DNA of 64,000 nucleotides, from NCBI GenBank assembly GCA_041661765.1, contig JBAZTV010000003.1:143914-207913 (forward strand), given 5' to 3'. Of the stretch, positions 42,993-61,783 are shown one piece after another. The position numbers and the translations under genes are program-made. How positions within the stretch are numbered: the first letter of the stretch is position 1; each line of letters opens with the position of its first letter. The notes below the pieces were generated by a model that was given only the letters and a program-made list of their open reading frames with translations, did no database searches and was not told the origin of the DNA. This DNA is from Candidatus Shapirobacteria bacterium. GTDB taxonomy: Bacteria; Patescibacteriota; Microgenomatia; UBA12405.

Positions 42993-43007
42993 AAATTAAA
43001 AAATAAA

Positions 43008-44006: not shown

Positions 44007-44138
44007 AACTTAAAATTAAAACCCACCCGCCCTGCGGGCACCCTCCCTTAAAAAAGGAGGGTTTTTGTTTATCCGTAGAGACGTTCTGCAGAACGTCTCT
44101 ACATAAAAAACATTATCCTGGGCACCCCGCATTGCGGG

Positions 44139-45116
44139 GTGCCCATATTAAAACAAAGTGCCCTGTCAAGGGAAAGGTGGTACGAAGTACCAAAGGGTTT
44201 AAAACAATTTGTGTATAATAATTTAATGCCACTTTTTTTATTATTATTTTTATCCCTGCTTTCCCCTTTTCAAGTCCAAGCTCAAACTTTTACTGATTCT
44301 CCATCCGTTTCTGTTTCCGCCGCCATCGGCGAAAACGAAGTCACTATCTTTGGTTACACCTCTCCCAATTCAAAAGTTGAATTAACTGGTATTAATATTT
44401 ATTCCCTCGATTACAGTGATGACACTGGTTATTTTAGATTTAATAGTTTAGTTTTACCTAGAAATTCTTCCGAGCTTTGTCTTCAGTCTAAAGATGATTC
44501 CAATCGTTCTTCATCTCTAATTTGCACTCCTCCACCACCCTCCACCAATTACCACACCGACATCGGTCCAATTATTCTCCCTCCTACCGTCTCCTTAGAA
44601 CAAGACAATATTAATCCCAATTCTACTGTTATCTCATCTGGCCAAAGTATTCCCAAATCAACTGTCACTGTTTATTTTTACAAAGTCGACGATTCCGCTC
44701 AATCTTTTCCTCGCTCCGTCGAAGCTTATTCACTACCAAAAATTGAAACCACCACCGATGAAAAAGGCAATTATAATATCAATCTTCCCACTGCCTATTC
44801 CAGTAATTACCGTCTCTACACATCAGTTACATACGATAATAATTTTTCCCCAAAATCTAATACCCTCTTATATACCATGCCTTCTCTTTTCTGGCTCTTC
44901 CTTCAACAACACGCTTATCTTACAGTTCTTCTACCCATCTTTATTTTTTCTCTTATCTTATTTTTTATTCTTATATTCATACAGACAGGGCATCGCCCCA
45001 TCTCTATCGTTCATTTTTTCCCAGCTCTCCGCACCTCATATCCCGCCATCAAAACCCAACATTTCCCCATTCTTTATCCCGATCATTTGCCTCGCAATTT
45101 TAAAATAGCAAAATAA
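44139..45116 (+). CDS. Hypothetical surface protein with a C-terminal hydrophobic anchor. The 5' end reads through a repeat, so the real start is probably near 44229.
   Basis: Internal signal-like MPLFLLLFLSLLSPFQVQAQT. C-terminal LPIFIFSLILFFILIFIQTG. Confidence 0.4.
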   Translation: MPILKQSALSRERWYEVPKGLKQFVYNNLMPLFLLLFLSLLSPFQVQAQTFTDSPSVSVSAAIGENEVTIFGYTSPNSKVELTGINIYSLDYSDDTGYFRFNSLVLPRNSSELCLQSKDDSNRSSSLICTPPPPSTNYHTDIGPIILPPTVSLEQDNINPNSTVISSGQSIPKSTVTVYFYKVDDSAQSFPRSVEAYSLPKIETTTDEKGNYNINLPTAYSSNYRLYTSVTYDNNFSPKSNTLLYTMPSLFWLFLQQHAYLTVLLPIFIFSLILFFILIFIQTGHRPISIVHFFPALRTSYPAIKTQHFPILYPDHLPRNFKIAK

Positions 45117-46654: not shown

Positions 46655-46814
46655 ATGAATCGCCCCTACATGTTATCCTTTTTATATATAATGCCTCGTA
46701 AAAAACCCTTTCAAAATCCCTCTAAATCTCCCTTTGACTTAAAGGGAGACTTTAAAAACAAAATTTTATTATCCCCTCCTTTAAGTCAAAGGAGGGGTAG
46801 GGGTGGATTTTGAC
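46655..46814 (+). promoter_or_regulatory. Conserved ~155-bp upstream cassette of the giant-protein genes. Contains a putative -10 (tatatataat) and two hairpins. Copies at 56474-56632 (near-identical) and 51820-51925 (partial).
   Basis: ...catgttatcctttttatatataatgcctcgtaaaaaaccctttcaaaatccctctaaatctccctttgacttaaagggagactttaaaaacaaaattttattatcccctcctttaagtcaaaggaggggtaggggtggattttgacATG. Confidence 0.6.
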
Positions 46815-49800
46815 ATGAAATCAAAAAAATTAGATATTAATAATTGGTCATATAAATCCTTATTAATAATTTTATTTTTTCTATTAATTGGTGTTGTTGT
46901 TTTATGGAAATTTGTTTTACCAAATCATAAAGTAGAGGCTAGTTGGTGGAATGATGGTTGGAATTATAGAAAAGCGGTTAGTATTAGTAATACATCAGGA
47001 TCTGATTTAACTGATTTTCAAGTTTCTTTATCTATAGGTACCAGTGCTTTAATTGCTTCCGGTAAAATGCAAAGTGATTGTGATGATATTAGAGTTACAG
47101 ATATTAATGGTAATTTGTTGCCGTATTGGATAGAAGAAAACAATCCTGGTTGTAATCAATTAACCGATACCAAAATTTGGATAAAGGCTAATTCCCTCCC
47201 CGTTTCCGATGCTACTATCTATATTTATTATGGCAACACTTCCGCTCCCTCATCTCAAAGTGGTACTAATACTTTTGAGTTTTTTGATGATTTTAATGAC
47301 GCCAGTAAAACAAACACCAACTGGACCGCAACCGGAACCGGATATACCATTACTGGCGGCAATCTTTACCATTCTACTACATTAGAACCAACCAATAATT
47401 TTACCTCTTATACTATTAATAATAGTTCTGGATTTACTAACGGAATAATTGAATCAAGAATGAAACCAGCTAGTTGTGGAAATTCTTACGGTAAAAGTAT
47501 TATCGCCAGATATACTGATGACAATAATCAATACATAGCTGGATTAGAAGCTTGGACTGGTGGTTACACTCACATCGGTAGAAGAGTAAGCAGTACCTGG
47601 ACAAACATCGATCAAGATATATTAGCCTGCAGTACCAGTACTTGGTATCAATTAAAATGGACTCTCAACGGATCTAATCAGTACTTAACAATTAATGGAG
47701 TTGCTTCCAGTGGTGTTGACACTAATCTTTCTTCTGGAAAAGTTGGCGTTTCTGTTGATAACCGAGAAACAGCAACAGGTGCTTATTGGGATTATATTTT
47801 TACTCATAAATACTCATCAGTTGAACCCACCGCCTCTCTCCAATCAGAAGAAGCCGGCGGCGGACCAATTGCTTATTGGAAATTTGACGAAGGCACCGGA
47901 AACAATGCTTACGATTCATCTAGTCAAAATAATACAGGATCAATGTTAAGTGCCCCTATTTGGAAAAATGAAAGTGAATGTGTTTCTGGAAAATGCTTAG
48001 CTTTTGATAATGTTGATGACGGCGTCAGTATTAATAAAAATTTTGTTGGTTTAACCGACTACACTATGTCAGCTTGGGTTAATATCAAAGGCACACACCA
48101 ACACTACACTGGCGCTATTATGTCTTCTGGTGATTGGAATACCCAATATTGGGTATTCGGTATTAGTCAAGCCAATGATGCCATAAACATGTGTGCCGGC
48201 AGTTGTTCTATAAATTATGCCTTTCAGTTAAATAAATGGACCCATGTAACTGTCACTAGAAGTGGTAGTCAATATACACTTTATATTAATGGAAAAAATA
48301 GTGGTACTTATTCTGGCAGTTCATCTGCTTTGGTCAGTAGTGCCACCAACACCACTATTGGTCGGGAAACTTATGGCGGTGGTTATTTTGCCTTTAATGG
48401 CTGGATCGACGAACCAAAAATTTATCCTTACGCCCGCACCGCCGACCAAATCAAACTCGATTATAATTCTCGCGGATCTTCCAAAGGCACTTCCGCTAAT
48501 TTAGGTGGCGCCGGAACTGATAACAATTTATCTAACGGTTTGGTTGGTTATTGGAAAATGGACGAAGGCACTATGGGAAGCGGAACCACTTTTACAGACT
48601 CATCAGGAAATGGAAATACCGGCACTGGCGTTAGTAGCGTTGCCGTATCAACAGGAGAATTTGGTAATGGTGTTGATATTCCAGGTCCTGGAGGCAGTGG
48701 TTTAGGATCAGTAATTAATGTTAATGATTCTGATTCTTTAGATATTGGTTATACCACACCAATGACAATTTCATTTTGGCTAAATGCCGATTCAACTGCC
48801 TGTGGTGCCATTATAAAAAAATCCGGTCTTTGGGAAATATATCGTTGTTCAGCTAATTTAACTATCCGTTTTGATGGTTATGATCAAGGTAGTTCATTTA
48901 ATTTAAATAACGGTCAATGGTATTTAGTTACAATGACACGTGATCCTTCTACTAACACCACAAAAGTCTATATAAACGGACAACAAACAGATAGTTGGAC
49001 ATATACTATTGGTACCCCAAATTATTCCGGAGGCATGGGAATAGGTGCTTACAATGGCGGATCTTATGCCATCGATGGCAAACTTGACGAAGTCCGCGTC
49101 TACAACCGCGCCCTTTCCCCTTCCGAAGTTTCTCAACTTTATGAATTCGCCCCCGGGCCAATCGGTTATTGGGATTTTAATGAAGCTTCTGGCACCGTCG
49201 CCAATGATAAAAGTGGAAATGGAAAAAATTTAACCACATACAATTCTCCAATTTGGAATCAAGGAAAAATTGGGTCTGCTTTAGATTTTAATGGTTCGAC
49301 TCAATATGCCAGAAGAACTAGTGAAACTAGTTTTCAAAGAGTAAATGGACAAGAAATATCCGTTTCTGTTTGGATATACCCCAAACGCTTAGGCGGACAA
49401 TATCAAGATATTGTCGCCAACAGATCTAGTTCTGGACTTAATTGGCTAATTTATCAACACACTACTGATGGATCAATACAATTCCATGGTTCTGCTCAAA
49501 ATAAATCTACCTATATTCCACCACTTAATCAATGGACTCATATCGAAACAACAATAGATGCAGTAGGAAATTATAAACTTTATGCTAATGGACAGATAGT
49601 TCAAAGTCTAACAGGATACACCTTTGGTACTAGCGGTATCACTGAATTAACTGTCGGCAATTTTAGTGCAAACGAATATTATTTAGGCAAAATAGACGAA
49701 GTCAAAATCTACAACTACGCCCGCACCCAAAAACAAATTATTGAAGATATGAACGCCAACCACCCCGCCGTCTCAGCCAATTCTGCCATCGCTTATTACA

Positions 49801-51809
49801 AATTCGACGAAGGCTACGGCACCACCACCTCAAATTGGGGCAACGGTGGTTCTGCTTTAAATGGAACATTAACTAATATGGCTTCACCTGCTATTACAAC
49901 TTCCGGATGGAATAATTCTGGAAAATTTGGAAAAGCACTTTCATTTGATGCGTCGGATGATTATGTAGATGCAGGTAATGCAGCGAGTTTGACTTTTGGT
50001 TCAGGTCAAAGTTTTACTTATGGAGCTTGGATATATAGTAAAAACCCTCTTGGACGTTGGCAAGGAGTTGTTTATCATGGAGATGTTGGTCAATCTCAAG
50101 GACATTTAGGACTTAATCCCTCAGGCCAACTCTCAGGTGGGACAGGAGATGGCAGCAGTTGGCAAACTCATGAAACAAGCTATTTAATTCCACAAAATAG
50201 GTGGACATATGTTGCTATTGTTTTAAATAGAAACTCAAACATATTAAAATTTTATGCAAATGGTGTTGAGGTAGGAAGCTATTCACATAGTTATGTTCCT
50301 TCGGCGCCAACCATTGGTTTAAGAATAGGAGATGGTAATACGGGTGGTTCAGAACATTTTGATGGTCTCGTTGACGAAGTCAAAATCTACAATTATGCTC
50401 TCACCGCCGATGAAATCAAACAAGATTATAACCAAAGTTCTGCCCTACAAATGGGACAAACTTCTCAAACCATCAGCGGCACCACCACCTCTCTCGATTA
50501 TTGCATCCCCGGCGATACTTCAGCCTGCGCCTCCCCCGTCGCCGAATATAAAATGGATGAAGGCATCGGCACCACCGCTTACGACACCAGTGGTAATAAT
50601 ATAAACGCTGGATTTAATAGTACTCCAACATGGACCCAAGGAAAAATCGGAAAATCATTAAATTTCAATGGCACAACAAATTATTTAACCAACACCAGAA
50701 AAGTTATCACTGGAGGTTTAACCTTTGGGGTTTGGATTAAAACCACCAGCACCGATTCTACTACTACTTATGATGGAAACGCAGCCCAAAATATAATTGG
50801 TGATTCTACTGGCGGTGTCGCTCTTGGTTTTGGAGTTCATGGAGGAAAAGTACGATATCAACACTATACCAGTGCTTGGTATAGTGTTTTAGGTTCAACC
50901 TCAGTCAATGATGGTCTATGGCACTACATCAGCGTCACTCACAATTCATCAACTGGAGCTATTGTTATTTATGTTGATGGCAAACAAGATGGCAGCGGAA
51001 CTCTTGCATATAACGGATCAAGTGCTTATGATATCATCGCTCGTGGTTATGGCGGAGATTATTTTACTGGACAATTAGACCAAATTCGCATCTACAACTA
51101 CGTTCGCACCCCCGCCCAAATCGCCTACGATTACAATAAAGGCGGACCAGTTGGTTGGTGGAAATTTGACGAATGCCAAGGCAATGTTGCCTACGATTGG
51201 AGCGGAGTCGGCAACACCGGCACCATTATTATTGGCGCCTCGGGCACCCAAAATTCCCTTGGTACTTGTGCTGTCGGCACTTCCGCCGCCTGGACCAACG
51301 GCACCAGTGGAAAAATTAATTCTAGTTTAAATTTTGATGGAGTGGATGATGTCGTAGATATTGCAGACAATGCGACCTTAAATGGAACCTCTTTTACTTT
51401 TTCGGCTTGGATATACAGTAATAATTTTAATCAAGAACAAGTATTATTCTCTAATACAAACGCTAGTATTGGATGGCACATTGAAGTTTATCAAGGTAAA
51501 ACAGTAATGCAAGTTTGGCCCGGAGGTGGTTACACAACCTCAATAAAAACCATGTCAAATAATACTTGGTACCACATCGTAATAACTTACAATAATGGTT
51601 CAATTATTTACTATCTCAATGGAGCTCCAAATGGTACTGCTACTCAAACATTTTCTGTCCCTACTGGTCTTACTAAAAGAATAGGACTTTTCTACAATGG
51701 TACTTATCCTTTTGTTGGCAAAATTGATGATGTTCGCATCTACAATTACACTCTAACCTCAGAACAAATAAAAACTCTTTATAACGGCGGAGCGGTTTCG
51801 TTTAACTAA
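46815..51809 (+). CDS. Giant membrane-anchored surface protein 1 (about 1664 aa from ATG 46815; the ORF opens at GTG 46803). N-terminal TM, DUF2341-like domain, then about 6 LamG/Concanavalin-A-like modules.
   Basis: TM LLIILFFLLIGVVVLWKFVL. WWNDGWNYRKAVSI...DFQV...DCDDIRVTDINGNLLPYWIE...IWIKANSLP...IYIYYGN matches the DUF2341 pattern. Repeated modules GPI(A/G)YWKFDEG.G..A.D.S...N.G..... W..GK.G.AL.FDG.DD... with conserved linkers (K/R)IYNYARTPAQIAYDYNKG and KIYPYARTADQIKLDYNSRGSS. Confidence 0.85.
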   Translation: MKSKKLDINNWSYKSLLIILFFLLIGVVVLWKFVLPNHKVEASWWNDGWNYRKAVSISNTSGSDLTDFQVSLSIGTSALIASGKMQSDCDDIRVTDINGNLLPYWIEENNPGCNQLTDTKIWIKANSLPVSDATIYIYYGNTSAPSSQSGTNTFEFFDDFNDASKTNTNWTATGTGYTITGGNLYHSTTLEPTNNFTSYTINNSSGFTNGIIESRMKPASCGNSYGKSIIARYTDDNNQYIAGLEAWTGGYTHIGRRVSSTWTNIDQDILACSTSTWYQLKWTLNGSNQYLTINGVASSGVDTNLSSGKVGVSVDNRETATGAYWDYIFTHKYSSVEPTASLQSEEAGGGPIAYWKFDEGTGNNAYDSSSQNNTGSMLSAPIWKNESECVSGKCLAFDNVDDGVSINKNFVGLTDYTMSAWVNIKGTHQHYTGAIMSSGDWNTQYWVFGISQANDAINMCAGSCSINYAFQLNKWTHVTVTRSGSQYTLYINGKNSGTYSGSSSALVSSATNTTIGRETYGGGYFAFNGWIDEPKIYPYARTADQIKLDYNSRGSSKGTSANLGGAGTDNNLSNGLVGYWKMDEGTMGSGTTFTDSSGNGNTGTGVSSVAVSTGEFGNGVDIPGPGGSGLGSVINVNDSDSLDIGYTTPMTISFWLNADSTACGAIIKKSGLWEIYRCSANLTIRFDGYDQGSSFNLNNGQWYLVTMTRDPSTNTTKVYINGQQTDSWTYTIGTPNYSGGMGIGAYNGGSYAIDGKLDEVRVYNRALSPSEVSQLYEFAPGPIGYWDFNEASGTVANDKSGNGKNLTTYNSPIWNQGKIGSALDFNGSTQYARRTSETSFQRVNGQEISVSVWIYPKRLGGQYQDIVANRSSSGLNWLIYQHTTDGSIQFHGSAQNKSTYIPPLNQWTHIETTIDAVGNYKLYANGQIVQSLTGYTFGTSGITELTVGNFSANEYYLGKIDEVKIYNYARTQKQIIEDMNANHPAVSANSAIAYYKFDEGYGTTTSNWGNGGSALNGTLTNMASPAITTSGWNNSGKFGKALSFDASDDYVDAGNAASLTFGSGQSFTYGAWIYSKNPLGRWQGVVYHGDVGQSQGHLGLNPSGQLSGGTGDGSSWQTHETSYLIPQNRWTYVAIVLNRNSNILKFYANGVEVGSYSHSYVPSAPTIGLRIGDGNTGGSEHFDGLVDEVKIYNYALTADEIKQDYNQSSALQMGQTSQTISGTTTSLDYCIPGDTSACASPVAEYKMDEGIGTTAYDTSGNNINAGFNSTPTWTQGKIGKSLNFNGTTNYLTNTRKVITGGLTFGVWIKTTSTDSTTTYDGNAAQNIIGDSTGGVALGFGVHGGKVRYQHYTSAWYSVLGSTSVNDGLWHYISVTHNSSTGAIVIYVDGKQDGSGTLAYNGSSAYDIIARGYGGDYFTGQLDQIRIYNYVRTPAQIAYDYNKGGPVGWWKFDECQGNVAYDWSGVGNTGTIIIGASGTQNSLGTCAVGTSAAWTNGTSGKINSSLNFDGVDDVVDIADNATLNGTSFTFSAWIYSNNFNQEQVLFSNTNASIGWHIEVYQGKTVMQVWPGGGYTTSIKTMSNNTWYHIVITYNNGSIIYYLNGAPNGTATQTFSVPTGLTKRIGLFYNGTYPFVGKIDDVRIYNYTLTSEQIKTLYNGGAVSFN

Positions 51810-51978
51810 TTTTCCCCTCCTTGTCAAAATCCCTCTAAATCTCCCTTTGACTTAAAGGGAGACTTTAAAAAAAATTATTATCCCCTCCTTTAAGTCAAAG
51901 GAGGGGTAGGGGTGGATTTTGAAGAAAGGGAGGATACCGGTTTATCCGGAGGAAGGATTCAAATGTTAAACTAAATTA

Positions 51979-54900
51979 GTGTCCAAACTTTCTTACAAAA
52001 CCCTTTTAATAATTCTCTTTTTTCTATTAATTGGTGTTATTGTTTTATGGAAATTTGTATTACCCAATCATAAAGTAGAAGCTAGTTGGTGGAATGATGG
52101 TTGGAATTATCGAGTCGCTGTTAATATCGGTAACACTGGCAGTTCACTCACTAATTTTCAAATCCCCATCAGCGTTGGAACATCTGCTCTAATTAATTCC
52201 AGTAAAATGCAATCCGATTGCGATGATATTCGTGTCGTTGATCAAAATGGTAATTTATTAACTTACTGGGTATCTGGCTGTGGTACCACTTCCACTCAAA
52301 TATGGCCTAAAATACCATCAATTCCCAATGGCGGCGCCACCGTTTATGTTTATTATGGCAATCCTTCAGCCACCTCAGTCAAATCCACCGTTGGCACCAG
52401 TGATTATCCTGGATTAAGTTGTAAATCAATTTTAGATGCCGGCAATTCCACTGGTAATAATACTTATTGGATTGATCCAACCAACGGTAACATTTCCGAT
52501 AAATTTCAAGCCTATTGCGATATGACCAATGATTCTGGCGGTTGGATGTTAGTCACCCAAAGTATGATTAGTAGTGAAGTTGGAACTTCCGTCACCACTA
52601 CAAAAACAACTAATATAAATGGCGGAGTCGATATTTCTAATTCAATCACTCATTCAGGATGTGGAGCCAGTATTTATCATCGAGTTTTATTTACAGATAT
52701 TATTCCCTGGACTAAAATTAAAGCCGACTATGAATTTTTGGGTGGTAATTCTTGTTGGAGTATCTTTGGAAATACTAGCTATACAGGTGGTAGCACTAAT
52801 TTAATTGCTTTTAGTTCAGGCACTGATACCATCCATAATCAAGTAAAAATGGGTGGATCAAATGGTGATAATTATGATGGTATTAACTCTCGTTGCGATA
52901 ACGAAACTTTTAATTTTTGGCATTCCAATCAAGGTGTTGGCACCACCAGAAGTGCTCAAGTTATCTTAAGAAGAAACAGTATGTCTTCTCTGGCTGGTCT
53001 TGGAACCGGAGCTGCTTGTAGTACTGCTGGTTATCCTTGGAAATATAAAAATATTTATGTTCGTGAAGATGTCATGACTTTTGCCGCCACTGCCGGAACC
53101 CCAGCCACTGAAGAAGTCGGCGGTGGCCCAATTGCTTATTGGAAATTCGACGAAGGCACCGGCACCACCGCTTACGATTCAACCACTAATCAAAATAACG
53201 GCATATTCAGCACCGGATCCTCTGCCCCCACTTGGCAAATCGAAGATCAATGTATTTCTGGAAAATGCCTATCCTTTAATAATGTAATGGGTAATAAAAT
53301 AAGCAGTAATTTTCGATATGACAATAATCAATATTTCACCATATCAGCCTTTATTAAACCAACCAGCACCAGTTCTTTCAAAATTATTGCTGGTACTGCC
53401 ATTGGAAATAATATTAACAGTGGATTAACCTTAAACGTTAACAATCTCTGTTTTCATGATTATTCTACTTTCAGCGGCGACAGAGAAATTTGTTCGTCCA
53501 ATAATCCTATTCAACTTAACACATGGCAACACATCGCCCTCATTTACAGTAATGGATCACTCGAATTATTTGTTAATGGAAAAAGTGTTAAAACCGGTTC
53601 ATTTACCATTACCAGTTCTGGCAACACTACTTTAATAGGAGGTTCATCAGCTTTCGATTATAGTGGTGGTCGATTTTTTAGTGGTTTCATTGATGATATT
53701 AAAATCTATCCCTACGCCCGCACTGCAGATCAAATCAAATTAGACTACAACTCTCGCGGATCTTCTAATGGTTCCTCCGTTAATCTCGGAGTCCAATCTT
53801 CCACCGCTCCTGATCTAAATTCTAAACTAATCGGTTATTATAAATTCGACGAAGGCAACGGAAACAATATTAATAACACTAAGTCAACATCTTATGATGG
53901 AACCAAATACAACACCACCAATTGGGATAATAATGGTAAATATAATAAAGCTTTATGGTTTGATGGCACTACCGCTCAATTAATTATTAATAATACTAGT
54001 GGATGGAGAAACAATGGTAACGACATGTCTTTATCAATTTGGATAAAACCCGATTCTTCTGATGATGGTGGTTATATTTTTTCAAAACCCTGGAATGGTA
54101 GTGGCGGTTACAATTATGGATTAACATCAAGTGGTGGAGCTAATCCATCATTTTCTTTTACTCTTACCGGCGCTTCTAGTTTTAGCTTAGGATCAAATAA
54201 AACTGTATCCAGTAATCAATGGCATCAAATAATTATAACTGTCAACAATACCACCAAATTAGTCAAATTTTACATCGATGGAAAAATTACAAATAGTAAT
54301 ACTCACACCATCACCGATTGGACACCTAGTGGTGGAGATGTTAGTGTTAATTTCGTTTTAGGTTGTATCTATCCATATGCAAGCAATTCTTGTGCCGGAG
54401 CTACCACCTATGACTTTAAAGGTTATATGGATGAATTTAAATATTACAATACAGTTTTAACCGACGAAGAAGTTAAACAAGATTATAACCAAGGATCGGC
54501 AATTTCTTTTGGTTCTACCAATCAAACCATCGGCGGCACCACCACTTCACTAGAATATTGCATTCCCGGCGATACGTCAACATGTTTAGCACCAGTCGCC
54601 GAATGGAAAATGGACGAAAAAACTGGCATCACCGTCAAAGACACCAGCGGCAATAATAATAACGGAACTATTACTGGCGCCACTTGGACCACTGGCCAAA
54701 TTGGCGCTGGTTTAAAATTTTCCGGCTCAGGCCAAGCTGTATCTGTTGTAGACAATTCCACGTTAAAACCAACCGCCGCCATCACCACTGAGGCTTGGTT
54801 TAATACTATCGATAAAACTGTTACCAGCCAAAGAATATTATCCAAAACCGAAGGTAGCGGCTATCAACTTAGTATTAATGAAAACAGTGCTTGTCCATCC

Positions 54901-55908
54901 AGTACTTTATGTTTTTTAATCAATATTAATGGTACCTATTATTCCGCTACTTACGCCAGTAGTAATTTATCTAATAACACTTGGTATCATATTGCCGGAT
55001 CTTATGATGGTACAACAGTTAAATTATTTCTAAATGGTTCCAATATTGGCACCACTGCCACAATTAGTAATACTATTACTCAAGCCGCTTACAATTTATG
55101 CATTGGTAGTGAAACCGATGCTGGATCTTGCACTTCTGGATTTTTTAATGGCAAAATTGATCATGTCAAAATCTACGACTATGCCCGCACCCCCGCCCAA
55201 ATCGCCTACGACTACAATAAAGGTGCCCCAGTTGGATGGTGGAAACTCGACGATTGCCAGGGTTTGACCGCGTTTGACTCATCTGGATTAGGAAATAATG
55301 GTGCCATTTCCATCGGCCCCAGTGGAACTCAAAACTCTGCCGGCACTTGTCAAATCGGCACTTCCGCCGCCTGGACCAATGGCGCCACTGGAAAAATTAA
55401 TTCTAGTTTAAATTTTGATGGCAATGATGATTATATTTCAACTTCATATATATCAGGTATTCAATCATTTATTACCATTAGTGCATGGATCAAACCAAAC
55501 GCATTAACCAGTACATACGAAATTTCAAATCAAGGCCAATGGGACGGAGGACCTTGGACAGGTTGGCGATTCAGACAAATAAATAATTATATTAACTTTA
55601 AACTTGGCGATAACACTTCTAATGCATATGAAGCATCAGGTGGAACACTTATACAAAATAGTTGGCAACATGTAGTTGGAATTTGGGATGGCAGCTATAT
55701 TCGTTTATATATAAATGGTAAAGAAGTAGTTAAAACTGCTAAATCATTCACTTATGTTGGAAATACTGGTTCTCATTCAATAGGTAAATATGGCGGATCT
55801 GCATATTTTTTTAAAGGCCAAATTGACGATCTTCGCATCTACAACTACGCTCTCACTCCAGAACAAGTCAAAACTGTTTTTAATAATGGAGCGGTGAATT
55901 TTCAATAA
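51979..55908 (+). CDS. Giant surface protein 2 (1309 aa). Same architecture, with a unique ~230-aa insert carrying a fibrinogen-related-like motif. The N-terminus is degenerate: no ATG, first possible start GTG.
   Basis: Shares TM plus DUF2341-like N-terminus and the C-terminal ...IDDLRIYNYALTPEQVKTVFNNGAVNF. Insert: GLSCKSILDAGNSTGNNTYWIDPTNGNISDKFQAYCDMTNDSGGWMLVTQ. Upstream ATG 51963 is out of frame and followed by a stop. Confidence 0.8.
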   Translation: MSKLSYKTLLIILFFLLIGVIVLWKFVLPNHKVEASWWNDGWNYRVAVNIGNTGSSLTNFQIPISVGTSALINSSKMQSDCDDIRVVDQNGNLLTYWVSGCGTTSTQIWPKIPSIPNGGATVYVYYGNPSATSVKSTVGTSDYPGLSCKSILDAGNSTGNNTYWIDPTNGNISDKFQAYCDMTNDSGGWMLVTQSMISSEVGTSVTTTKTTNINGGVDISNSITHSGCGASIYHRVLFTDIIPWTKIKADYEFLGGNSCWSIFGNTSYTGGSTNLIAFSSGTDTIHNQVKMGGSNGDNYDGINSRCDNETFNFWHSNQGVGTTRSAQVILRRNSMSSLAGLGTGAACSTAGYPWKYKNIYVREDVMTFAATAGTPATEEVGGGPIAYWKFDEGTGTTAYDSTTNQNNGIFSTGSSAPTWQIEDQCISGKCLSFNNVMGNKISSNFRYDNNQYFTISAFIKPTSTSSFKIIAGTAIGNNINSGLTLNVNNLCFHDYSTFSGDREICSSNNPIQLNTWQHIALIYSNGSLELFVNGKSVKTGSFTITSSGNTTLIGGSSAFDYSGGRFFSGFIDDIKIYPYARTADQIKLDYNSRGSSNGSSVNLGVQSSTAPDLNSKLIGYYKFDEGNGNNINNTKSTSYDGTKYNTTNWDNNGKYNKALWFDGTTAQLIINNTSGWRNNGNDMSLSIWIKPDSSDDGGYIFSKPWNGSGGYNYGLTSSGGANPSFSFTLTGASSFSLGSNKTVSSNQWHQIIITVNNTTKLVKFYIDGKITNSNTHTITDWTPSGGDVSVNFVLGCIYPYASNSCAGATTYDFKGYMDEFKYYNTVLTDEEVKQDYNQGSAISFGSTNQTIGGTTTSLEYCIPGDTSTCLAPVAEWKMDEKTGITVKDTSGNNNNGTITGATWTTGQIGAGLKFSGSGQAVSVVDNSTLKPTAAITTEAWFNTIDKTVTSQRILSKTEGSGYQLSINENSACPSSTLCFLININGTYYSATYASSNLSNNTWYHIAGSYDGTTVKLFLNGSNIGTTATISNTITQAAYNLCIGSETDAGSCTSGFFNGKIDHVKIYDYARTPAQIAYDYNKGAPVGWWKLDDCQGLTAFDSSGLGNNGAISIGPSGTQNSAGTCQIGTSAAWTNGATGKINSSLNFDGNDDYISTSYISGIQSFITISAWIKPNALTSTYEISNQGQWDGGPWTGWRFRQINNYINFKLGDNTSNAYEASGGTLIQNSWQHVVGIWDGSYIRLYINGKEVVKTAKSFTYVGNTGSHSIGKYGGSAYFFKGQIDDLRIYNYALTPEQVKTVFNNGAVNFQ

Positions 55909-55948: not shown

Positions 55949-56395
55949 TTATTTATTGTTTAAAACCCTCCGCCCTTTGGGCACCTCCCTTGACAGGGAG
56001 GCTTTTCTTTCTTGAATATTTTTTATTATTTCATTTTTAACTTTTTCCAATTCATTTAATATTTCTTTGTTTTTAAATCTTATGGTTTTAATATTTAAAC
56101 AATTTAAAAATTTATCTCTCTTTGAGTCTTGTTCTTGTTTTTTAAGATGATATCCACCATCAATTTCGATCACTAATAATAATTCAGAACAATAAAAATC
56201 TAAAATAAATCTGTCTAATGGTTTTTGTCTGGTAAATTTATAATTCATTGGTCTATTTTTCAAGAATTCATACCAAATTTTTGATTCAGCTTTAGTCATT
56301 TTATGTCTATTTATTTTGGCTGCCCATCTTAATTGTTCCAAATATTTTAAATTTCCCTTTTGAGTCATTATTTCAACACATGTAATATCTCTCAC
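55949..56395 (-). CDS. DUF559 endonuclease-domain protein. Paralog of 41052-41462. The 3' end reads into a flanking hairpin repeat.
   Basis: KAESKIWYEFLKNRPMNYKFTRQKPLDRFILDFYCSELLLVIEIDGGYH...DSKRDKFLNCLNIKTIRFKN. Flanked by inverted copies of aaaaccctccg..cacctcccttgacagggaggctt at 55961-56005 and 56408-56462. Confidence 0.8.
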   Translation of the reverse strand: MRDITCVEIMTQKGNLKYLEQLRWAAKINRHKMTKAESKIWYEFLKNRPMNYKFTRQKPLDRFILDFYCSELLLVIEIDGGYHLKKQEQDSKRDKFLNCLNIKTIRFKNKEILNELEKVKNEIIKNIQERKASLSREVPKGRRVLNNK

Positions 56396-56632
56396 AAATA
56401 ATTATTAGGATTTAAAGCCTCCCTGTCAAGGGAGGTGGCGAGTGAAACGAGACGGAGGGTTTTGAATTAAAAATGAATCCCCTCCCCATGTTATCCTTTT
56501 TATATATAATGCCTCGTAAAAAACCCTTTCAAAATCCCTCTAAGTCTCCCTTTGACTTAAAGGGAGACTTTAAAAACAAAATTTTATTATCCCCTCCTTT
56601 AAGTCAAAGGAGGGGTAGGGGTGGATTTTGAC

Positions 56633-59600
56633 ATGAAATCAAAAAAATTAGATATTAATAATTGGTCAGTAAAGAGTTTATTAATTATTTTATTTTTCTT
56701 ATTAATTAGTATTGTTATTCTTTGGAAATTTGTCTTACCAAATCATAAAGTAGAGGCTAGTTGGTGGAATGATGGTTGGAATTATAGGAAAGCGGTTAGT
56801 ATTAGTAATACTGGTGCTGCTCAAACCAACACCCAAATTAAAATCCTTAATAATTATGATCTAAGTGCTCTAGTTACTGCTGGAAAAATTCAAGCCGATT
56901 TAGACGATTTAAGATTTACTGACATCAATGGAAATTTACTAAATTATTGGATTGAAGATTCCACTAATAATAGTGTTGATATTTGGGGTGTTGTTTCTTC
57001 ACTTCCAACATCAGGTACTACTATTTATATGTATTATGGAAATCCTTCAGCAACCAGTGTCAGTAGCACTTCAAATATAACCATCGGTGGCACAATGACA
57101 TCTATCGGTGGCTATCGTATTCACACATTTACTAGTAATGGAACCTTAACAAACGCCAATAATACCAATGCCGAAGTTTTAGTTGTCGCCGGTGGCGGCG
57201 GCGGCGGATCTTCATCTGGTGTTGGTGATGGTGGTAGTGGCGGCGGAGGCGCTGGAGGTCTAACCTATAATTCATCTTATGCCCTAACTCAAGGACAAAT
57301 TATTAATATCACTGTTGGTGTCGGTGGAACCAATGGTGCCACTTCTTCACATCAATCAGGGACAGATGGTGGCAATTCTATTTTTGGAGCTATTACTACA
57401 AACGGTGGTGGAGGCGGTGGAACCACTGGTGTAAATGGTCGACCTGGGGGTTCCGGTGGTGGCGGTGGTTACAATGGTTATACTACCATTCGCTATGGTG
57501 GAAGTGGTGTTGTTGGAATTGGAAATTCAGGTGGAGCTACTACTGATTTAGCTTCAGCATCAGGAGCTGGTGGAGGTGGAGCCGGAGGAGTTGGTGGAAA
57601 TAATATAACAGGTCATGTTGGAGGAAATGGTGGTTTAGGAATTAATTATTCTATAACTGGAATCGGGGTAACCTATGCCAGTGGTGGTCGTGGCGGCGGC
57701 GGCGCCGCCCCTGTTAACAAAACAGCCAATACTGGTAATGGCGGTGATGGAGCTTATTCTACCAGTATACCCACCAGTGGTGCTTCCGGCATTGTTGTCG
57801 TCAGATTTTTATCTGGAACCGCCAGCACCCCTTCCACCGAAGAAGCCGGCGGTGGCCCAATTGCTTATTGGAAATTCGACGAAGGCACCGGCACTTCTGC
57901 TTATAATTCAACTACAAGCAACCATAATGGTGCTCTTCAAAACGGAACTTCTTGGGCCTCTGAAGATCAATGTGTTTCAGGAAAATGTTTAAAATTTGAT
58001 GGAGTAAATGATTATGTTAGTGCTGGGGTTGGAACCGATTATCTCCCCATGAATACTTTTTCTATATGTGCTTGGGCAAAATCTCCAGGCCTTGCCTCTG
58101 GTATGAGTTTAAATGGAATAATAAGTTACACCTATGGTTTAACAATGTCCATTGACGGATCTGGACATTTTCTTAGTAGAGTAGATGATGGATCAAATAT
58201 AGTTGGTGTAACTGAATCATCTCAAAATCTTTATGATAATAAATTTCATCATCTATGTTTTACATTTGATGGTACTAATCGTTATATGTATATTGACGGT
58301 AAATTAAAAGTAACAACCGCAACTACATGGAACAATAGATATTCAAGTAATTCAGTAAATATCGGACACGAAAACAATAATTCACCTATTTATAAATTTA
58401 ATGGTTTCATTGATGAACCAAAAATTTATCCCTACGCCCGCACCGCCGCTCAAATCAAACTCGACTACAATTCCCGCGGTTCTTCCAAAGGCACTTCCGC
58501 CAATCTCGGATCCGCCGCTAGTGATAATAATTTATCTGATGGATTAGTCGGTTATTGGAAAATGGACGAAAATACAGGCATAAGTATTACTGATAGTTCA
58601 GGATTAGGTTACACCGGAATTTTTGGAACTGGAGATTCTGCTCCTTCTTGGTCAAGTGGAAAATTCGGGGTTGGCACCAGTTTTGACGGTAGTAATGATT
58701 ATATTGACGCCGGAAATGTTTTAAATATGGGCACTAATGATATGACCATATCAACGTGGATAAAAACCACCAATTCTAGTTCCACTGCTCAATATATAGT
58801 AAGTAAATCTTTAGCCGCTGCTCAAAATTATCGCTATGGTATTTTTACTAGAAATGGTACTGCTGGAATTTTTATGCAAGGTGACGGTGGAGCTGATGTT
58901 GTGGTTTATGGTACTAAAAATATAGCCGATGGAAATTGGCATAATATTACATATATTTTTAACAGAGATGATAAAGCCGATATTTATGTTGATGGAATTT
59001 ACGATGTGGGGCAAACAATATCTCAATGGAACGGAAAAAATATGGTTTCTATTAATCCTTTTAGGATCGGTGCCTACACTGCAGCTGACAACACAGGTAT
59101 TACTTCCTCATTTAGTGGTTTTATAGATGAAACTCGAGTTTACAACCGCGCCCTTTCCCCCACTGAAGTTTCTCAACTTTACGAATTCGCCCCCGGACCA
59201 ATTTTTTATTGGGATTTTAACGAAGGAATCGGTACCACTGCTTTTGACAAACAAAACCACACAAATTTACCTATTTCAAATGCCACCTATACATCGGGTA
59301 AATATGGCGGTGGATTAAATTTCAATGGAAATGCTTGGTTAGAAAAATCAATTTCTCCATCAATTGCCGCCGCTCAAGATTATACCCAATGTCTTTGGTT
59401 TAACACTTCAACCAATGCCACTAGACAAATATTAATTGATGATTCTAATCAATGGGAACATTGGATCGCTATTAACACCAATAAAACAATTTCTGGTTGT
59501 TATTATAATGCTTCTCAAATGTGTGCCACTTCTACTAACATCATTAATTTAAACACCTGGAATTATGTTTGTTTAGCCGTTCAATCTGGACAAAAAATGA

Positions 59601-61783
59601 GCTTATTTTTAAATGGATCACTTTGGGCTGAAAACACTAATATTGGCAGCACTTTACCTAAAATTTATGATGATGTTTGTATTGGTAAAGCTGGAGGAGG
59701 TTCCAATGAAAAATTTACTGGAAAAATTGACGATGTCAAAATCTACAATTACGCCCGCACCCAAAAACAAATCACTGAAGATATGAATGCTAACCACCCT
59801 GCCGTTTCTTCTAATTCTATGATTGGTTATTGGAAATTTGACGAAGGCAGTGGCACCACCGCCAACAATTCCGGCAACGGCGGTTCTGCTTTAAACGGAA
59901 CATTAACTGGTACAACCATCCCAACCTGGACCAACGACAGTAAATCTGGTAAAGCCATCAATTTAAATGGCATCAATAGTTTTGCTCGAACTGGCATTAT
60001 CCCTGCCTCCGATGCTTTTTCTCTTTCTGTTTGGTTCAAAGCCAATCAAGTTAGAGATCAAAATCGAATTTATTGGGGCACTGGTACAGACAAAGCAATA
60101 CTAGCTTTTTCCGGTACATCAGGATATTTAACTTGGTATATGTCTGCCTCTGGTGGTAATACAGGTTATAAAACTACATCAAAAAAAATTAATATTAATG
60201 ACTGGAATCACGTTGTTTTAGTTTACAACGGCAGTATTGTTAAATGTTTTATTAATGGAGTCGAAGATAATATCATAGGTACTTTAACTGGTACTAGTGT
60301 TGCTTCTGCTATTAATTTAGGTACTAATTATAATAATACTGGAAATTGGTTTGACGGAAAAATAGATGAGGTTAAAGCTTATAACTACGCTCTCACCTCC
60401 GACGAAATCAAACTCGACTACAATCAAGGTTCTGCCCTACAAATGGGACAAACTTCTCAAACCATCAGTGGCACCACCACTTCTCTAGAATATTGCATTC
60501 CTGGCGATACTTCGGCCTGCGCCTCCCCTGTTGCCGAATGGAACTTCGAAGAAAACACCGGCACCACCACCAAAGATTCTAGTGGCAATAATAACACCGG
60601 CACTTTTGGCACCGGATCTTCCGCCCCCACCTGGACAATTGGCAAAAAAAATACCGGCGCCGGATTAAGATTTGATGGAGTTAATGATTATTTAACATTC
60701 CCTAATTATTTTAATTTAAGTCCCGCCACCCTAGAATTTTGGTTTAAAGCCAATAGTTGGTCCAACTCCCCATTAATTATCGGTAAAGATAGTGCTGGCG
60801 CCACTAACGGATATGTTCAATATGTTAGTAGTCAATTAAGATTTTATGCACCTGGAAACACAGTAACTGTTAATTGGGGTAATCCATCATTAAACACCTG
60901 GCACCATGCCACTTTAGTTATCACCGGAACTCAACATTTAGCTTATTTAGATGGTGCATTAGTTGGCTCTCCAGTTTCTTCCGCACTGGCTTTATTCACT
61001 GGCAACTATAATTTTAAAGTTGGCTGTTACGATAATGGCGCTTTAGCATTCAATGGTTCCATTGATCAAATGAAGATTTACAATTACGCCCGCACCCCCG
61101 CCCAAGTCGCCTACGACTATAACAAAGGGGGTCCAATTGGTTGGTGGAAGCTTGACGAATGCCAAGGTTCCGTGGCTAACGACTCATCCGGAATAGGTAA
61201 TACTGGATCAATTAATATCAGTGCTAGCGGCACCCAAACCTCTGTCGGTACTTGCACCACTTCTGGCACTGCCTGGGGCAACGGTGCTAGCGGTAAAATC
61301 AACTCTTCGCTAAACTTCGATGGAACAGATGATGAAATTAGTATAGGATCATTTGGTATTCTAAATAATTACACTATATCATTTTGGGCAAAACATAATG
61401 TTTCAAGTAAGATGCCTATTGGTTCTAGGTCTGGCACTACTTATTATTGGTATGGAGACAGTAGTTGGAAATATACTCATGGAGGAACTTCCGGTGAATT
61501 TTATTATCCAAAGTCAGTAAATATTCCCAATGGGACCTGGGGACATTTCACTGTTACTTATGATGGAATTAATGTCCGCATTTACAGAAACGGAAAGTTT
61601 GAAGGTTCTCAAGGTTCTACTGGTACAGCAGATTTTTCTAATGGATTTTATTTAGGATGGGGATATCCAGATAGTAGTTATCATTTTAATGGTCAAATAG
61701 ATGACGTTCGCATCTACAACTACGCCTTAACTCCGGAACAAGTCAAGACACTTTACAATGGTGGAGCGGTCAGCTTTAATTAA
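56633..61783 (+). CDS. Giant surface protein 3 (about 1716 aa from ATG 56633; the ORF opens at GTG 56621). TM, DUF2341-like domain, a ~250-aa glycine-rich segment, then about 7 LamG/ConA-like modules.
   Basis: N-terminal 45 aa nearly identical to protein 1. Gly-rich region ...YRIHTFTSNGTLTNANNTNAEVLVVAGGGGGGSSSGVGDGGSGGGGAGGL...GGGGGGTTGVNGRPGGSGGGGGYNG...ASGIVVVRF. C-terminal IDDVRIYNYALTPEQVKTLYNGGAVSFN is identical in style to proteins 1 and 2. Confidence 0.85.
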   Translation: MKSKKLDINNWSVKSLLIILFFLLISIVILWKFVLPNHKVEASWWNDGWNYRKAVSISNTGAAQTNTQIKILNNYDLSALVTAGKIQADLDDLRFTDINGNLLNYWIEDSTNNSVDIWGVVSSLPTSGTTIYMYYGNPSATSVSSTSNITIGGTMTSIGGYRIHTFTSNGTLTNANNTNAEVLVVAGGGGGGSSSGVGDGGSGGGGAGGLTYNSSYALTQGQIINITVGVGGTNGATSSHQSGTDGGNSIFGAITTNGGGGGGTTGVNGRPGGSGGGGGYNGYTTIRYGGSGVVGIGNSGGATTDLASASGAGGGGAGGVGGNNITGHVGGNGGLGINYSITGIGVTYASGGRGGGGAAPVNKTANTGNGGDGAYSTSIPTSGASGIVVVRFLSGTASTPSTEEAGGGPIAYWKFDEGTGTSAYNSTTSNHNGALQNGTSWASEDQCVSGKCLKFDGVNDYVSAGVGTDYLPMNTFSICAWAKSPGLASGMSLNGIISYTYGLTMSIDGSGHFLSRVDDGSNIVGVTESSQNLYDNKFHHLCFTFDGTNRYMYIDGKLKVTTATTWNNRYSSNSVNIGHENNNSPIYKFNGFIDEPKIYPYARTAAQIKLDYNSRGSSKGTSANLGSAASDNNLSDGLVGYWKMDENTGISITDSSGLGYTGIFGTGDSAPSWSSGKFGVGTSFDGSNDYIDAGNVLNMGTNDMTISTWIKTTNSSSTAQYIVSKSLAAAQNYRYGIFTRNGTAGIFMQGDGGADVVVYGTKNIADGNWHNITYIFNRDDKADIYVDGIYDVGQTISQWNGKNMVSINPFRIGAYTAADNTGITSSFSGFIDETRVYNRALSPTEVSQLYEFAPGPIFYWDFNEGIGTTAFDKQNHTNLPISNATYTSGKYGGGLNFNGNAWLEKSISPSIAAAQDYTQCLWFNTSTNATRQILIDDSNQWEHWIAINTNKTISGCYYNASQMCATSTNIINLNTWNYVCLAVQSGQKMSLFLNGSLWAENTNIGSTLPKIYDDVCIGKAGGGSNEKFTGKIDDVKIYNYARTQKQITEDMNANHPAVSSNSMIGYWKFDEGSGTTANNSGNGGSALNGTLTGTTIPTWTNDSKSGKAINLNGINSFARTGIIPASDAFSLSVWFKANQVRDQNRIYWGTGTDKAILAFSGTSGYLTWYMSASGGNTGYKTTSKKININDWNHVVLVYNGSIVKCFINGVEDNIIGTLTGTSVASAINLGTNYNNTGNWFDGKIDEVKAYNYALTSDEIKLDYNQGSALQMGQTSQTISGTTTSLEYCIPGDTSACASPVAEWNFEENTGTTTKDSSGNNNTGTFGTGSSAPTWTIGKKNTGAGLRFDGVNDYLTFPNYFNLSPATLEFWFKANSWSNSPLIIGKDSAGATNGYVQYVSSQLRFYAPGNTVTVNWGNPSLNTWHHATLVITGTQHLAYLDGALVGSPVSSALALFTGNYNFKVGCYDNGALAFNGSIDQMKIYNYARTPAQVAYDYNKGGPIGWWKLDECQGSVANDSSGIGNTGSINISASGTQTSVGTCTTSGTAWGNGASGKINSSLNFDGTDDEISIGSFGILNNYTISFWAKHNVSSKMPIGSRSGTTYYWYGDSSWKYTHGGTSGEFYYPKSVNIPNGTWGHFTVTYDGINVRIYRNGKFEGSQGSTGTADFSNGFYLGWGYPDSSYHFNGQIDDVRIYNYALTPEQVKTLYNGGAVSFN

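What the first reader, a model, noticed from the sequence alone, without database searches (positions are those of the whole stretch)
52380..52700. Fibrinogen-related-domain-like motif inside giant protein 2
The unique insert of protein 2 contains GLSCKSILDAGNSTGNNTYWIDPTNGNISDKFQAYCDMTNDSGGWMLVTQ. The spacing of Cys...YWIDP...(F/Y)CDM..DGGGW(T/M)(V/L) matches the N-terminal half of the fibrinogen C-terminal globular domain (FReD) of ficolins, tenascins and angiopoietins. FReD is a mainly eukaryotic carbohydrate- or ligand-binding fold, rare in bacteria, and would be unexpected grafted into a CPR LamG adhesin. It would imply glycan binding or acquisition by horizontal transfer.
Basis: partly seen in the sequence, partly recalled or inferred. 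Interest (0 to 1): 0.6.

Follow-up and report, generated by a model that had tools for sequence, protein, structure and literature searches.

The report
Fibrinogen/collagen-propeptide-like adhesin head domain
The motif is real, but it is only the first ~46 residues of a 218-residue, disulfide-rich domain that is common in bacteria; its predicted fold is closest to the collagen C-propeptide rather than to fibrinogen, and it most likely serves as a swappable surface binding head in this ultrasmall (CPR) bacterium.

Summary
The motif is confirmed at aa 145-194 of ORF 51979-55908 (nt 52411-52560). NCBI already curates it as a bacterial module: NF040941, 'fibrinogen-like YCDxxxxGGGW', scores 52.4 bits against a cut-off of 30. 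Pfam Fibrinogen_C falls below its threshold (18.3 vs 22). Pfam COLFI passes (34.6 vs 26.2), but both cover only ~50 residues.

The module starts a conserved 218-aa domain (aa 145-362) with six invariant Cys. Its last ~170 aa match no Pfam family. Two AlphaFold models (pLDDT 94.9 and 93.2) show a small N-terminal subdomain followed by an all-beta part. By Foldseek the closest solved structures are procollagen C-propeptides (E 6e-5, TM about 0.4). Fibrinogen domains rank far lower.

The domain exactly fills a variable cassette between DUF2341 and the LamG arrays in three paralogous giant proteins. It recurs in other CPR giants, at the C-terminus of CPR type IV pilins (including cultured Minisyncoccus), in Myxococcota-type secreted proteins and in corals. 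The short module is widespread in prokaryotes.

Verdict: this is not a canonical FReD and not a recent graft from a eukaryote. It is an uncharacterised prokaryote-rich relative of the FReD/COLFI/intelectin group, probably an extracellular binding head. Glycan binding is untested.

The parts
51979..55908 (+). Gene for giant protein 2 (1309 aa), identical to NCBI MFA6185458.1 'DUF2341 domain-containing protein' from a Candidatus Shapirobacteria MAG
51979..52083 (+). N-terminal hydrophobic signal or anchor (aa 1-35, ...KVEA|SWW). It lacks the type IV prepilin motif. Cleavage is inferred.
   Evidence: Read directly from the sequence. The segment is nearly identical in the three paralogs.
52216..52401 (+). 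DUF2341 (aa 80-141), truncated at model position 65 of 84, where the cassette begins
   Evidence: 56.8 bits. Paralog 1 has the full model, positions 1-83.
52417..52554 (+). GGGWT_bact / FReD-A / COLFI-base-like module (aa 147-192). It contains Cys148 and Cys180 and the loop D166-P-T-N-G-N-I-S-D174.
52411..53064 (+). Whole conserved domain (aa 145-362, GLSC...KNIYVR), with six invariant Cys (148, 180, 228, 259, 306, 347). This is the variable cassette of the paralogs.
52555..53064 (+). C-terminal all-beta part (aa 193-362, 11 strands in the model). It matches no Pfam family and carries the conserved motif block M291-GGSxGDxxDGxxxRCDNxxxNFWH-315 and R331-R332.
53065..53130 (+). Linker (aa 363-384) ending in EEVGGGPIAYWKFDEG, which is conserved in all three paralogs
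53131..55905 (+). Four Laminin_G_3 (ConA-like) repeats
   Evidence: 317.6 bits, 4 stretches
46803..51809 (+). Paralogous giant 1. It has the same anchor, DUF2341 and LamG arrays, with a different cassette and a full DUF2341 model.
56621..61783 (+). Paralogous giant 3. It has the same frame, with a Gly_rich_2 (PF21722) cassette in the same position.

Best explanation
Residues 145-362 form one compact extracellular domain. It belongs to a prokaryote-rich, uncharacterised family. The first ~46 residues (helix plus three short strands, Cys148 and Cys180, CDMxxxxGGW) are the ancient module shared with the fibrinogen-related domain A-subdomain, with intelectins and with the 'base' of the fibrillar-collagen C-propeptide. 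The other ~170 residues form an all-beta domain whose closest solved relative is the 'petal' of the collagen C-propeptide.

In this Shapirobacteria protein the domain occupies an exchangeable cassette slot between the DUF2341 domain and a chain of four LamG domains. Elsewhere in CPR the same domain sits at the far C-terminal end of type IV pilin-like proteins.

The most likely role is a monomeric, disulfide-stabilised and possibly Ca2+-dependent ligand-binding head. It would help the episymbiotic cell recognise and hold a partner cell surface.

Shown here: the homology of the module, the domain limits, the fold class, the cassette nature, the recurrent architectures and the distribution.

Inferred: secretion or anchoring, three disulfides, Ca2+ at the D166...D174 loop, a binding site in the conserved loop cluster 283-315, and the nature of the ligand (glycan or protein).
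For: Module homology: NF040941 scores 52.4 bits against a cut-off of 30. COLFI scores 34.6 against 26.2. PDB profile hits cover positions 5-58 only. hhalign against the COL1A1 C-propeptide gives probability 93% over 47 columns, which is base region 32-78.

In the 45-row alignment six Cys are invariant, together with D283, N312 and R331. Within CPR giants this domain is the most conserved N-terminal part (about 0.9 against about 0.6 for DUF2341), with variable segments at 201-240.

Fold: pLDDT 94.9 and pTM 0.91. A replicate on a member only 38% identical gave pLDDT 93.2. Foldseek puts COLFI chains in the top 16-17 places with probability 0.99-1.0. Carbohydrate-binding modules and Eph ligand-binding domains follow, and FReDs come far lower.

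Cassette.

Architectures:
- Pilin-fused members P0002, P0007, P0008, P0136 and P0139.
- P0002 lies beside PilB/PilC and other pilin genes, including a LamG-tipped pilin.
- Minisyncoccus archaeiphilus WP_412733107.1 combines a pilin N-terminus, DUF2341 and this domain at the extreme C-terminus.
- Tandem copies occur in a single chain in P0207.

Precedent: lectin-like C-terminal domains on minor pilins mediate host binding in Saccharibacteria (PMC11623550). DUF2341 proteins have been proposed as pilus-tip adhesins (PMC4858521).
Against: No ligand, metal or localisation data exist for any member. TM-scores to COLFI are only 0.37-0.46 with rmsd of 8-10 A, so relatedness beyond the N-terminal module is suggestive and not proven. 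hhalign saw no sequence signal in the petal.

In this protein the domain lies near the N-terminal anchor. If the anchor is retained, the domain would be membrane-proximal rather than at the tip. No type IV pilus genes were found among the window ORFs scanned.

The second Asp of the putative Ca loop is present in only 11 of 45 members.
Confidence: 0.6

Rival explanations
1. It is a COLFI-like oligomerisation (trimerisation) module. Like the collagen C-propeptide base, it would bring three giant chains together with Ca2+ rather than bind a ligand.
For: COLFI is the best structural match and passes the Pfam threshold. The base region that this motif matches is the main trimer interface of CPI and carries the Ca2+ site (PMC5353611). 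D166...D174 has the same spacing as COLFI D59...D67.
Against: The stalk coiled coil is absent. Both inter-chain cysteines (COLFI Cys47 and Cys64) are absent, replaced here by Ala154 and Asn171. The domain occurs at the end of pilin subunits, which are single chains in a filament. It also occurs as two tandem copies in one chain (P0207) and next to extra module copies (P0140). The second Ca-loop Asp is not conserved in the family.
Confidence: 0.15
2. It is a carbohydrate-active enzyme or other catalytic beta-sandwich, not merely a binding module. The invariant Asp/Asn/His/Arg cluster would be an active site acting on the host envelope.
For: There are many invariant polar residues (D283, D307/N308, N312, H315, R324, R331-R332) in a loop-rich region. 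Weak Foldseek hits include GH-associated beta-sandwiches.
Against: No Pfam or NCBIfam enzyme family matches. The structural neighbours after COLFI are non-catalytic CBMs and receptor ligand-binding domains. No invariant Glu pair of the kind typical of jelly-roll glycosidases is present.
Confidence: 0.1
3. It is a canonical fibrinogen-related lectin domain recently acquired from a eukaryote.
For: The CDMxxxxGGW motif and Cys pair match FReDs. Full-length relatives exist in corals.
Against: Fibrinogen_C scores below its gathering threshold and covers only 44 of 221 positions. The FReD fold is not recovered. There is no P-domain Cys pair. Prokaryotic members are numerous, deeply diverged (33-78% identity) and spread over CPR, Myxococcota and others in many architectures. 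The coral members are few and restricted.
Confidence: 0.04
4. The resemblance is a chance motif with no homology.
For: None beyond the short length of the match.
Against: E-values range from 3.9e-14 to 9e-11, and hundreds of homologous modules were found.
Confidence: 0.01

Closest known systems
NCBIfam NF040941 GGGWT_bact ('fibrinogen-like YCDxxxxGGGW domain-containing protein')
   Same: aa 147-192 match the full 46-position model above its cut-off. NCBI uses this name for CPR pilin-fused homologs such as P0007.
   Different: The model covers only the N-terminal module. It says nothing about the conserved 170-aa C-terminal part. NCBI named this particular protein after DUF2341 instead. No paper using the NF040941 name was found.
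Fibrillar procollagen C-propeptide (COLFI, PF01410; PDB 4AE2, 5K31, 6FZV)
   Same: It is the best structural match for two independent models. The Pfam hit is above threshold. The YWIDPxxG loop and the Cys41-Cys73 pair equivalents (Cys148, Cys180) are shared, with the same D...D spacing as the Ca2+ loop.
   Different: TM is only about 0.4. There is no detectable sequence similarity beyond the base region. There is no stalk coiled coil, no inter-chain Cys47/Cys64, no collagen triple helix upstream and a different set of petal cysteines. The context is a prokaryotic adhesin or pilin.
Fibrinogen-related domain (FReD, PF00147: ficolins, tenascins, angiopoietins)
   Same: The A-subdomain is shared: the Cys pair, the (F/Y)CDM motif, the GGGW strand and a final hxhR strand.
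   Different: It scores below the Pfam threshold. The B and P subdomains, the P-domain disulfide and the ligand/Ca site are not recovered by sequence or fold.
Intelectins / X-type lectins (XEEL, hITLN-1)
   Same: These are the best PDB sequence matches for the family profile (9e-11 to 4e-9), and they are likewise limited to the N-terminal module. Here too, only the start of the domain resembles FReD.
   Different: No intelectin appears among the top 50 structural matches. The intelectin Ca/diol-binding region was not detected.
Lectin-like C-terminal domains of CPR minor pilins (Saccharibacteria PilX1/PilX2) and swapped tip domains of Bdellovibrio MAT fibres
   Same: The design logic is the same. 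Modular surface fibres or pilins carry interchangeable, often eukaryote-like, binding heads used for host or prey recognition (PMC11623550; PMC10769870).
   Different: The folds differ (L-type lectin jelly roll, beta-propeller, TNF-like, C-type lectin). No member of the present family has been tested.

Membership tests
NCBIfam NF040941 GGGWT_bact | HMM score at or above the curated cut-off (30 bits) over the 46-position model | tested here: met
   52.4 bits, E 3.9e-14, aa 147-192 aligned to model positions 1-46
FReD (Pfam PF00147 Fibrinogen_C) | HMM score at or above the gathering threshold (22 bits) over most of the 221-position model | tested here: not met
   18.3 bits, one stretch, model positions 5-48 only
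FReD (Pfam PF00147 Fibrinogen_C) | A-subdomain with a Cys pair and the (F/Y)CDM...GGGW motif | tested here: met
   Cys148, Cys180 and YCDMTNDSGGW. Profile hits to fibrinogen beta, tenascin, FIBCD1 and angiopoietin fall at these positions.
FReD (Pfam PF00147 Fibrinogen_C) | B and P subdomain fold | tested here: not met
   The best FReD is at rank 46 (E 0.023, TM 0.28) for model 1 and at rank 20 (E 0.012, TM 0.23) for model 2. The model is all-beta after residue 50.
FReD (Pfam PF00147 Fibrinogen_C) | P-domain disulfide (C-x12-C) and the adjacent Ca2+/ligand site | tested here: not met
   The Cys residues are at 228, 259, 306 and 347, and none has C-x12-C spacing. The HMM does not align this region. 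A loose D-x2-D-x5-C-x7-W resemblance was noted but is not supported.
COLFI (Pfam PF01410) | HMM score at or above the gathering threshold (26.2 bits) | tested here: met
   34.6 bits, but only model positions 18-71 of 233 are aligned
COLFI (Pfam PF01410) | Base region: intrachain Cys41-Cys73 pair and the Ca2+ loop D59...D67 | tested here: inconclusive
   The equivalent residues are present with matching spacing (Cys148/Cys180; D166-x7-D174). Metal binding and pairing could not be checked because no coordinates were available. D174 is conserved in only 11 of 45 members.
COLFI (Pfam PF01410) | Stalk coiled coil and the inter-chain Cys47/Cys64 that make the trimer | tested here: not met
   The domain is preceded directly by DUF2341. 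The positions equivalent to Cys47 and Cys64 are Ala154 and Asn171.
COLFI (Pfam PF01410) | Petal fold | tested here: inconclusive
Intelectin / X-type lectin | Intelectin fold with the Ca2+-dependent exocyclic-diol site | tested here: not met
   The sequence match is limited to positions 5-58. No intelectin appears in the top 50 structural matches.
Type IV pilin | Class III signal peptide with the N-methylation motif (G|FTLIE) | tested here: not met
   The window protein starts MSKLSYKTLLIILFF... and has no N_methyl hit. Homologous domains in other proteins do sit on true pilins.

The most novel reading that the evidence does not exclude
The prokaryotic family is a sister or ancestral lineage of the metazoan extracellular modules FReD, intelectin and, especially, the fibrillar-collagen C-propeptide. 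If so, a domain thought to be an animal invention would derive from, or have been exchanged with, bacterial cell-contact adhesins. Corals still carry the bacterial-type full-length form. In CPR bacteria the domain would be a pilus- or surface-displayed host-recognition head whose specificity is set by the variable 201-240 hairpins.
Probability: 0.25. Interest if true: 0.65.

Novelty: new variant of a known kind. Interest (0 to 1): 0.42.

Why it matters
CPR bacteria live attached to other microbes, and the molecules that recognise the host are largely unknown. This domain is a recurrent, strongly conserved head on their giant surface proteins and on type IV pilins. One carrier is the cultured parasite Minisyncoccus archaeiphilus, so the domain's role in attachment could be tested directly.

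The family also bears on evolution. It links three animal extracellular domains (fibrinogen-related, intelectin and collagen C-propeptide) to a large prokaryotic pool enriched in predatory and episymbiotic lineages. This is relevant to the origin of the collagen C-propeptide. For annotation, a 'fibrinogen-like' label on these proteins should not be read as a ficolin-type lectin.

Tried and rejected

(2) The exhaustive HMMER job used alignment A2, whose P0002 row contributed its pilin half to the profile (419 positions). Many of the hits, and the totals of 5837/2197/789, therefore reflect pilins. They are not used as family size. Only hits covering profile positions ~200-419 were used.

(3) The NCBIfam TafC match (156 bits against a cut-off of 410) comes from the LamG repeats and was dismissed.

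(4) Literature searches for the NF040941 name and for bacterial FReDs returned nothing relevant.

(5) I noticed a spacing resemblance between D297-x2-D300-x5-C306-x7-W314 and the FReD Ca/ligand loop. I did not adopt it because the FReD HMM does not align there.

Its length (246) and all eight Cys positions agree with PMC5353611. It detected only the base region.

(7) Model coordinates are not exposed, so disulfide pairing and pocket geometry could not be measured.

(8) Type IV pilus genes were looked for among the window ORFs of 150 aa or more and none was found.
Full report
**Observation**

The ORF 51979-55908 (+, 1309 aa) contains the quoted peptide at aa 145-194, which is nt 52411-52560. 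The quoted start of 52380 is out of frame, so translating the interval directly gives stops. A regex for the motif hits once in the six-frame translation of the window. The protein is identical to NCBI MFA6185458.1, 'DUF2341 domain-containing protein', from a Candidatus Shapirobacteria MAG on a 210-kb contig. The neighbouring LeuRS carries the same organism label. The CPR origin is therefore confirmed. The rest of the window holds ordinary housekeeping genes: NusG, L1, Ddl, Alr, Mur ligase, RuvB, MurB, MreB, LeuRS and ComEC.

**Is the motif more than chance, and what does it match?**

- Pfam Fibrinogen_C scores 18.3 bits, below its threshold of 22. It aligns only model positions 5-48 of 221.
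- Pfam COLFI (fibrillar collagen C-terminal domain) scores 34.6 bits, above its threshold of 26.2. It aligns only model positions 18-71 of 233.
- NCBIfam NF040941 'GGGWT_bact, fibrinogen-like YCDxxxxGGGW domain' matches end to end, with 52.4 bits against a cut-off of 30 and E 3.9e-14.
- Against PDB sequences, the single domain and a 45-sequence profile hit several protein groups, always over only the first ~55 residues:
  - intelectin/XEEL (9e-11);
  - fibrinogen beta (2e-7);
  - tenascins, FIBCD1, angiopoietins, MFAP4, FGL1 and tachylectin 5A;
  - collagen C-propeptides (2e-4).
- hhalign of the family against the COL1A1 C-propeptide gives probability 93% over 47 columns, the 'base' region 32-78.

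The motif is therefore a real, ancient module shared by FReD, X-type lectins and COLFI. Curators already recognise it in bacteria.

**The motif is only the start of a larger domain**

Homologs define a unit running from GLSC to KNIYVR (aa 145-362). In pilin-fused relatives the protein ends exactly at this last strand. The 45-row alignment has six invariant cysteines (148, 180, 228, 259, 306, 347). It also has a strongly conserved block M291-GGSxGDxxDGxxxRCDNxxxNFWH-315 and R331-R332. The C-terminal ~170 residues of ten diverse members match no Pfam family, even at E<=10. A search with that part alone found only unnamed proteins with no Pfam annotation in that part.

**Fold**

An AlphaFold2 model of aa 141-371 is confident (pLDDT 94.9, pTM 0.91). 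It has a helix and three short strands, followed by eleven strands.

| Foldseek vs PDB | Model 1 (window domain) | Model 2 (P0010, 38% identical, pLDDT 93.2) |
|---|---|---|
| Top hits | 16 procollagen C-propeptide chains (4AE2, 4AEJ, 5K31, 6FZV/W, 4AK3) | 17 procollagen C-propeptide chains |
| E-value of top hits | 6e-5 to 1.4e-3 | 5e-4 to 1.7e-3 |
| Probability | 1.0 | 0.99-1.0 |
| TM-score | 0.38-0.46 | 0.36-0.45 |
| Best FReD | rank 46, E 0.023, TM 0.28 | rank 20 and below, E >= 0.012, TM <= 0.25 |

After the COLFI chains, model 1 hits CBM11/27/16/61, Eph ligand-binding domains and gingipain adhesin domains.

**Comparison with the COLFI base**

According to PMC5353611, the base (residues 30-76) holds the following:
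- one Ca2+ per chain, with Asp67 among the ligands;
- the intrachain Cys41-Cys73 pair;
- the inter-chain Cys47-Cys64 pair.

In this protein Cys148 and Cys180 take the places of Cys41 and Cys73. D166-P-T-N-G-N-I-S-D174 mirrors D59-P-N-Q-G-C-N-L-D67 with identical spacing. The inter-chain cysteines are replaced by Ala154 and Asn171, and there is no stalk coiled coil. The second Asp is kept in only 11 of 45 family members, mainly the CPR group.

**Genomic and architectural context**

Three tandem giant genes (46803, 51979 and 56621) share four features:
- the upstream region;
- the N-terminal hydrophobic anchor;
- DUF2341;
- a conserved linker (EE-GGGPIAYWKFDEGTG) followed by LamG_3 arrays.

They differ in a ~230-aa cassette:

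| Paralog | Cassette |
|---|---|
| 1 (46803) | Full DUF2341 model followed by an unrelated ~180-aa segment |
| 2 (51979) | The present domain |
| 3 (56621) | A Gly_rich_2 domain |

Protein and DNA similarity stop at about aa 100-140 and resume at about aa 370. The same DUF2341 + domain + LamG architecture occurs in at least seven other giant proteins of 1295-1995 aa (P0126-P0130, P0133, P0137). Two of them carry both this domain and the Gly-rich one. Within that group the domain is the best conserved N-terminal part (about 0.9 column identity, against about 0.6 for DUF2341). The variable stretches are at 201-240, 261-280 and 341-350.

Other architectures also occur:
- **Type IV pilin fusions.** The domain sits at the C-terminus of proteins with a type IV pilin N-terminus (P0002, P0007, P0008, P0136, P0139). 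P0002 lies on an 806-kb contig near PilB, PilC, other pilins and a LamG-tipped pilin.
- **A cultured CPR parasite.** Minisyncoccus archaeiphilus encodes WP_412733107.1. It combines a pilin N-terminus, a long repetitive middle region, DUF2341, a further unassigned segment and this domain at the very end.
- **Short secreted or lipoprotein-like proteins.** These include a Polyangiaceae locus (L002). There are also fusions with Cys-rich repeats or LamG.
- **Coral proteins.** Oculina (on a 32-Mb scaffold) and Stylophora carry the domain behind PAN or Sushi domains.

**Distribution of the short module**

The best hits are dominated by Myxococcota, Bdellovibrio/Bacteriovoracaceae, Bradymonadia, CPR, DPANN archaea, Planctomycetota and Auribacterota. 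A word-limited protein search gave 585 hits. Many are named by NCBI with the NF040941 label, and some carry N_methyl, Flp, DUF2341 or LamG domains. Some proteins contain 14-15 copies. The module is therefore not rare in prokaryotes. The apparent enrichment in predatory and episymbiotic lineages is my reading of a top-80 list and is not a statistical test.

**Mechanism**

The best-supported reading is an extracellular, disulfide-stabilised binding head used as an exchangeable cassette on surface giants and on pilins. It is probably monomeric, because it sits on pilin subunits and occurs in tandem within one chain. Ca2+ at the COLFI-like loop is possible. The conserved loop cluster 283-315 is a candidate binding site, and the variable hairpins at 201-240 are candidate specificity determinants.

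There are experimental precedents for this logic. Lectin-like C-terminal domains on Saccharibacteria minor pilins are needed for host binding (PMC11623550). DUF2341 proteins have been proposed as pilus-tip adhesins (PMC4858521). Bdellovibrio fibres have swapped eukaryote-like tips (PMC10769870). No member of this family has been tested, so function is inferred.

The rivals are a COLFI-like trimerisation module (0.15), a catalytic beta-sandwich (0.10), a canonical FReD recently acquired from a eukaryote (0.04) and chance (0.01).

**Novelty and verdict**

The N-terminal module is already curated (NF040941), so the bare observation is not new. Three things appear to be undescribed in Pfam and in the searchable literature:
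- the full 218-aa domain;
- its COLFI-like rather than FReD-like fold;
- its use as a cassette in CPR giants and pilins.

I rate it a new variant of a known kind, of moderate interest (0.42).

Noticed in passing
window 46803-51809, 51979-55908, 56621-61783: Three tandem paralogous giant surface proteins share the anchor, DUF2341, a linker and LamG arrays. Each carries a different ~230-aa cassette in the same slot (an unassigned segment, the GGGW/COLFI-like domain, and Gly_rich_2 PF21722). Other CPR giants (P0133, P0137) carry two of these cassettes in tandem. This looks like a combinatorial adhesin-head system.
   Followed up: partly
window 51819-51922 and 56525-56631: About 105 nt upstream of giant 2 and giant 3 are 93.5% identical. 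About 160 nt upstream of all three genes is alignable. This is probably a shared promoter or 5'UTR.
   Followed up: no
window 55949-56395 (-), with repeats at 55982-56005 and 56414-56437: A DUF559 (Vsr-like endonuclease) ORF sits between giants 2 and 3. It is bracketed by a perfect 24-nt inverted repeat, and each arm is itself a hairpin (CCTCCCT-tgaca-GGGAGG). These may be terminators or a small mobile cassette.
   Followed up: partly
window 38706-45116 (+): Six consecutive ORFs just upstream of the giants. The one read (41577-42992) starts with a hydrophobic, signal-like N-terminus. They have no Pfam match apart from one weak WxL-interacting-protein peptidoglycan-binding hit (43008-44006). 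They may be part of the same surface apparatus.
   Followed up: no
window 63034-63486 (-): An ORF with a bacterial Ig-like Big_1/invasin D3 domain lies at the window edge. It is another surface-protein gene next to the giants.
   Followed up: no
P0207, P0302 (Oculina patagonica) and P0303 (Stylophora pistillata): Stony corals encode full-length homologs of the whole domain (about 38-40% identity to the window domain), placed behind PAN or Sushi domains. In them GGGW is replaced by AIGKW or AIRQW. One lies on a 32-Mb scaffold, so contamination is unlikely. This hints at exchange between bacteria and corals.
   Followed up: partly
P0020 and similar GGGWT proteins; P0138, P0150, P0178: Some bacterial module-bearing proteins match Pfam Fibrinogen_C further in (to model position 94) and end in ...VELYIR, so they look closer to true FReDs. 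Others are proteins of 3100-4500 aa with 14-15 repeats of the module.
   Followed up: no
L001 4214-5464 (contig of P0002): A CPR type IV pilin with a Laminin_G_3 C-terminal head lies about 2.5 kb from the pilin carrying the GGGW/COLFI-like head and near pilB/pilC. The same two head types are combined in one chain in the window protein.
   Followed up: no
window aa 297-314 of ORF 51979 (nt 52867-52920): D-x2-D-x5-C-x7-W has spacing reminiscent of the FReD P-domain Ca/ligand loop (D-x-D-x5-C-x7-WW). No HMM supports it, so it may be coincidental.
   Followed up: partly
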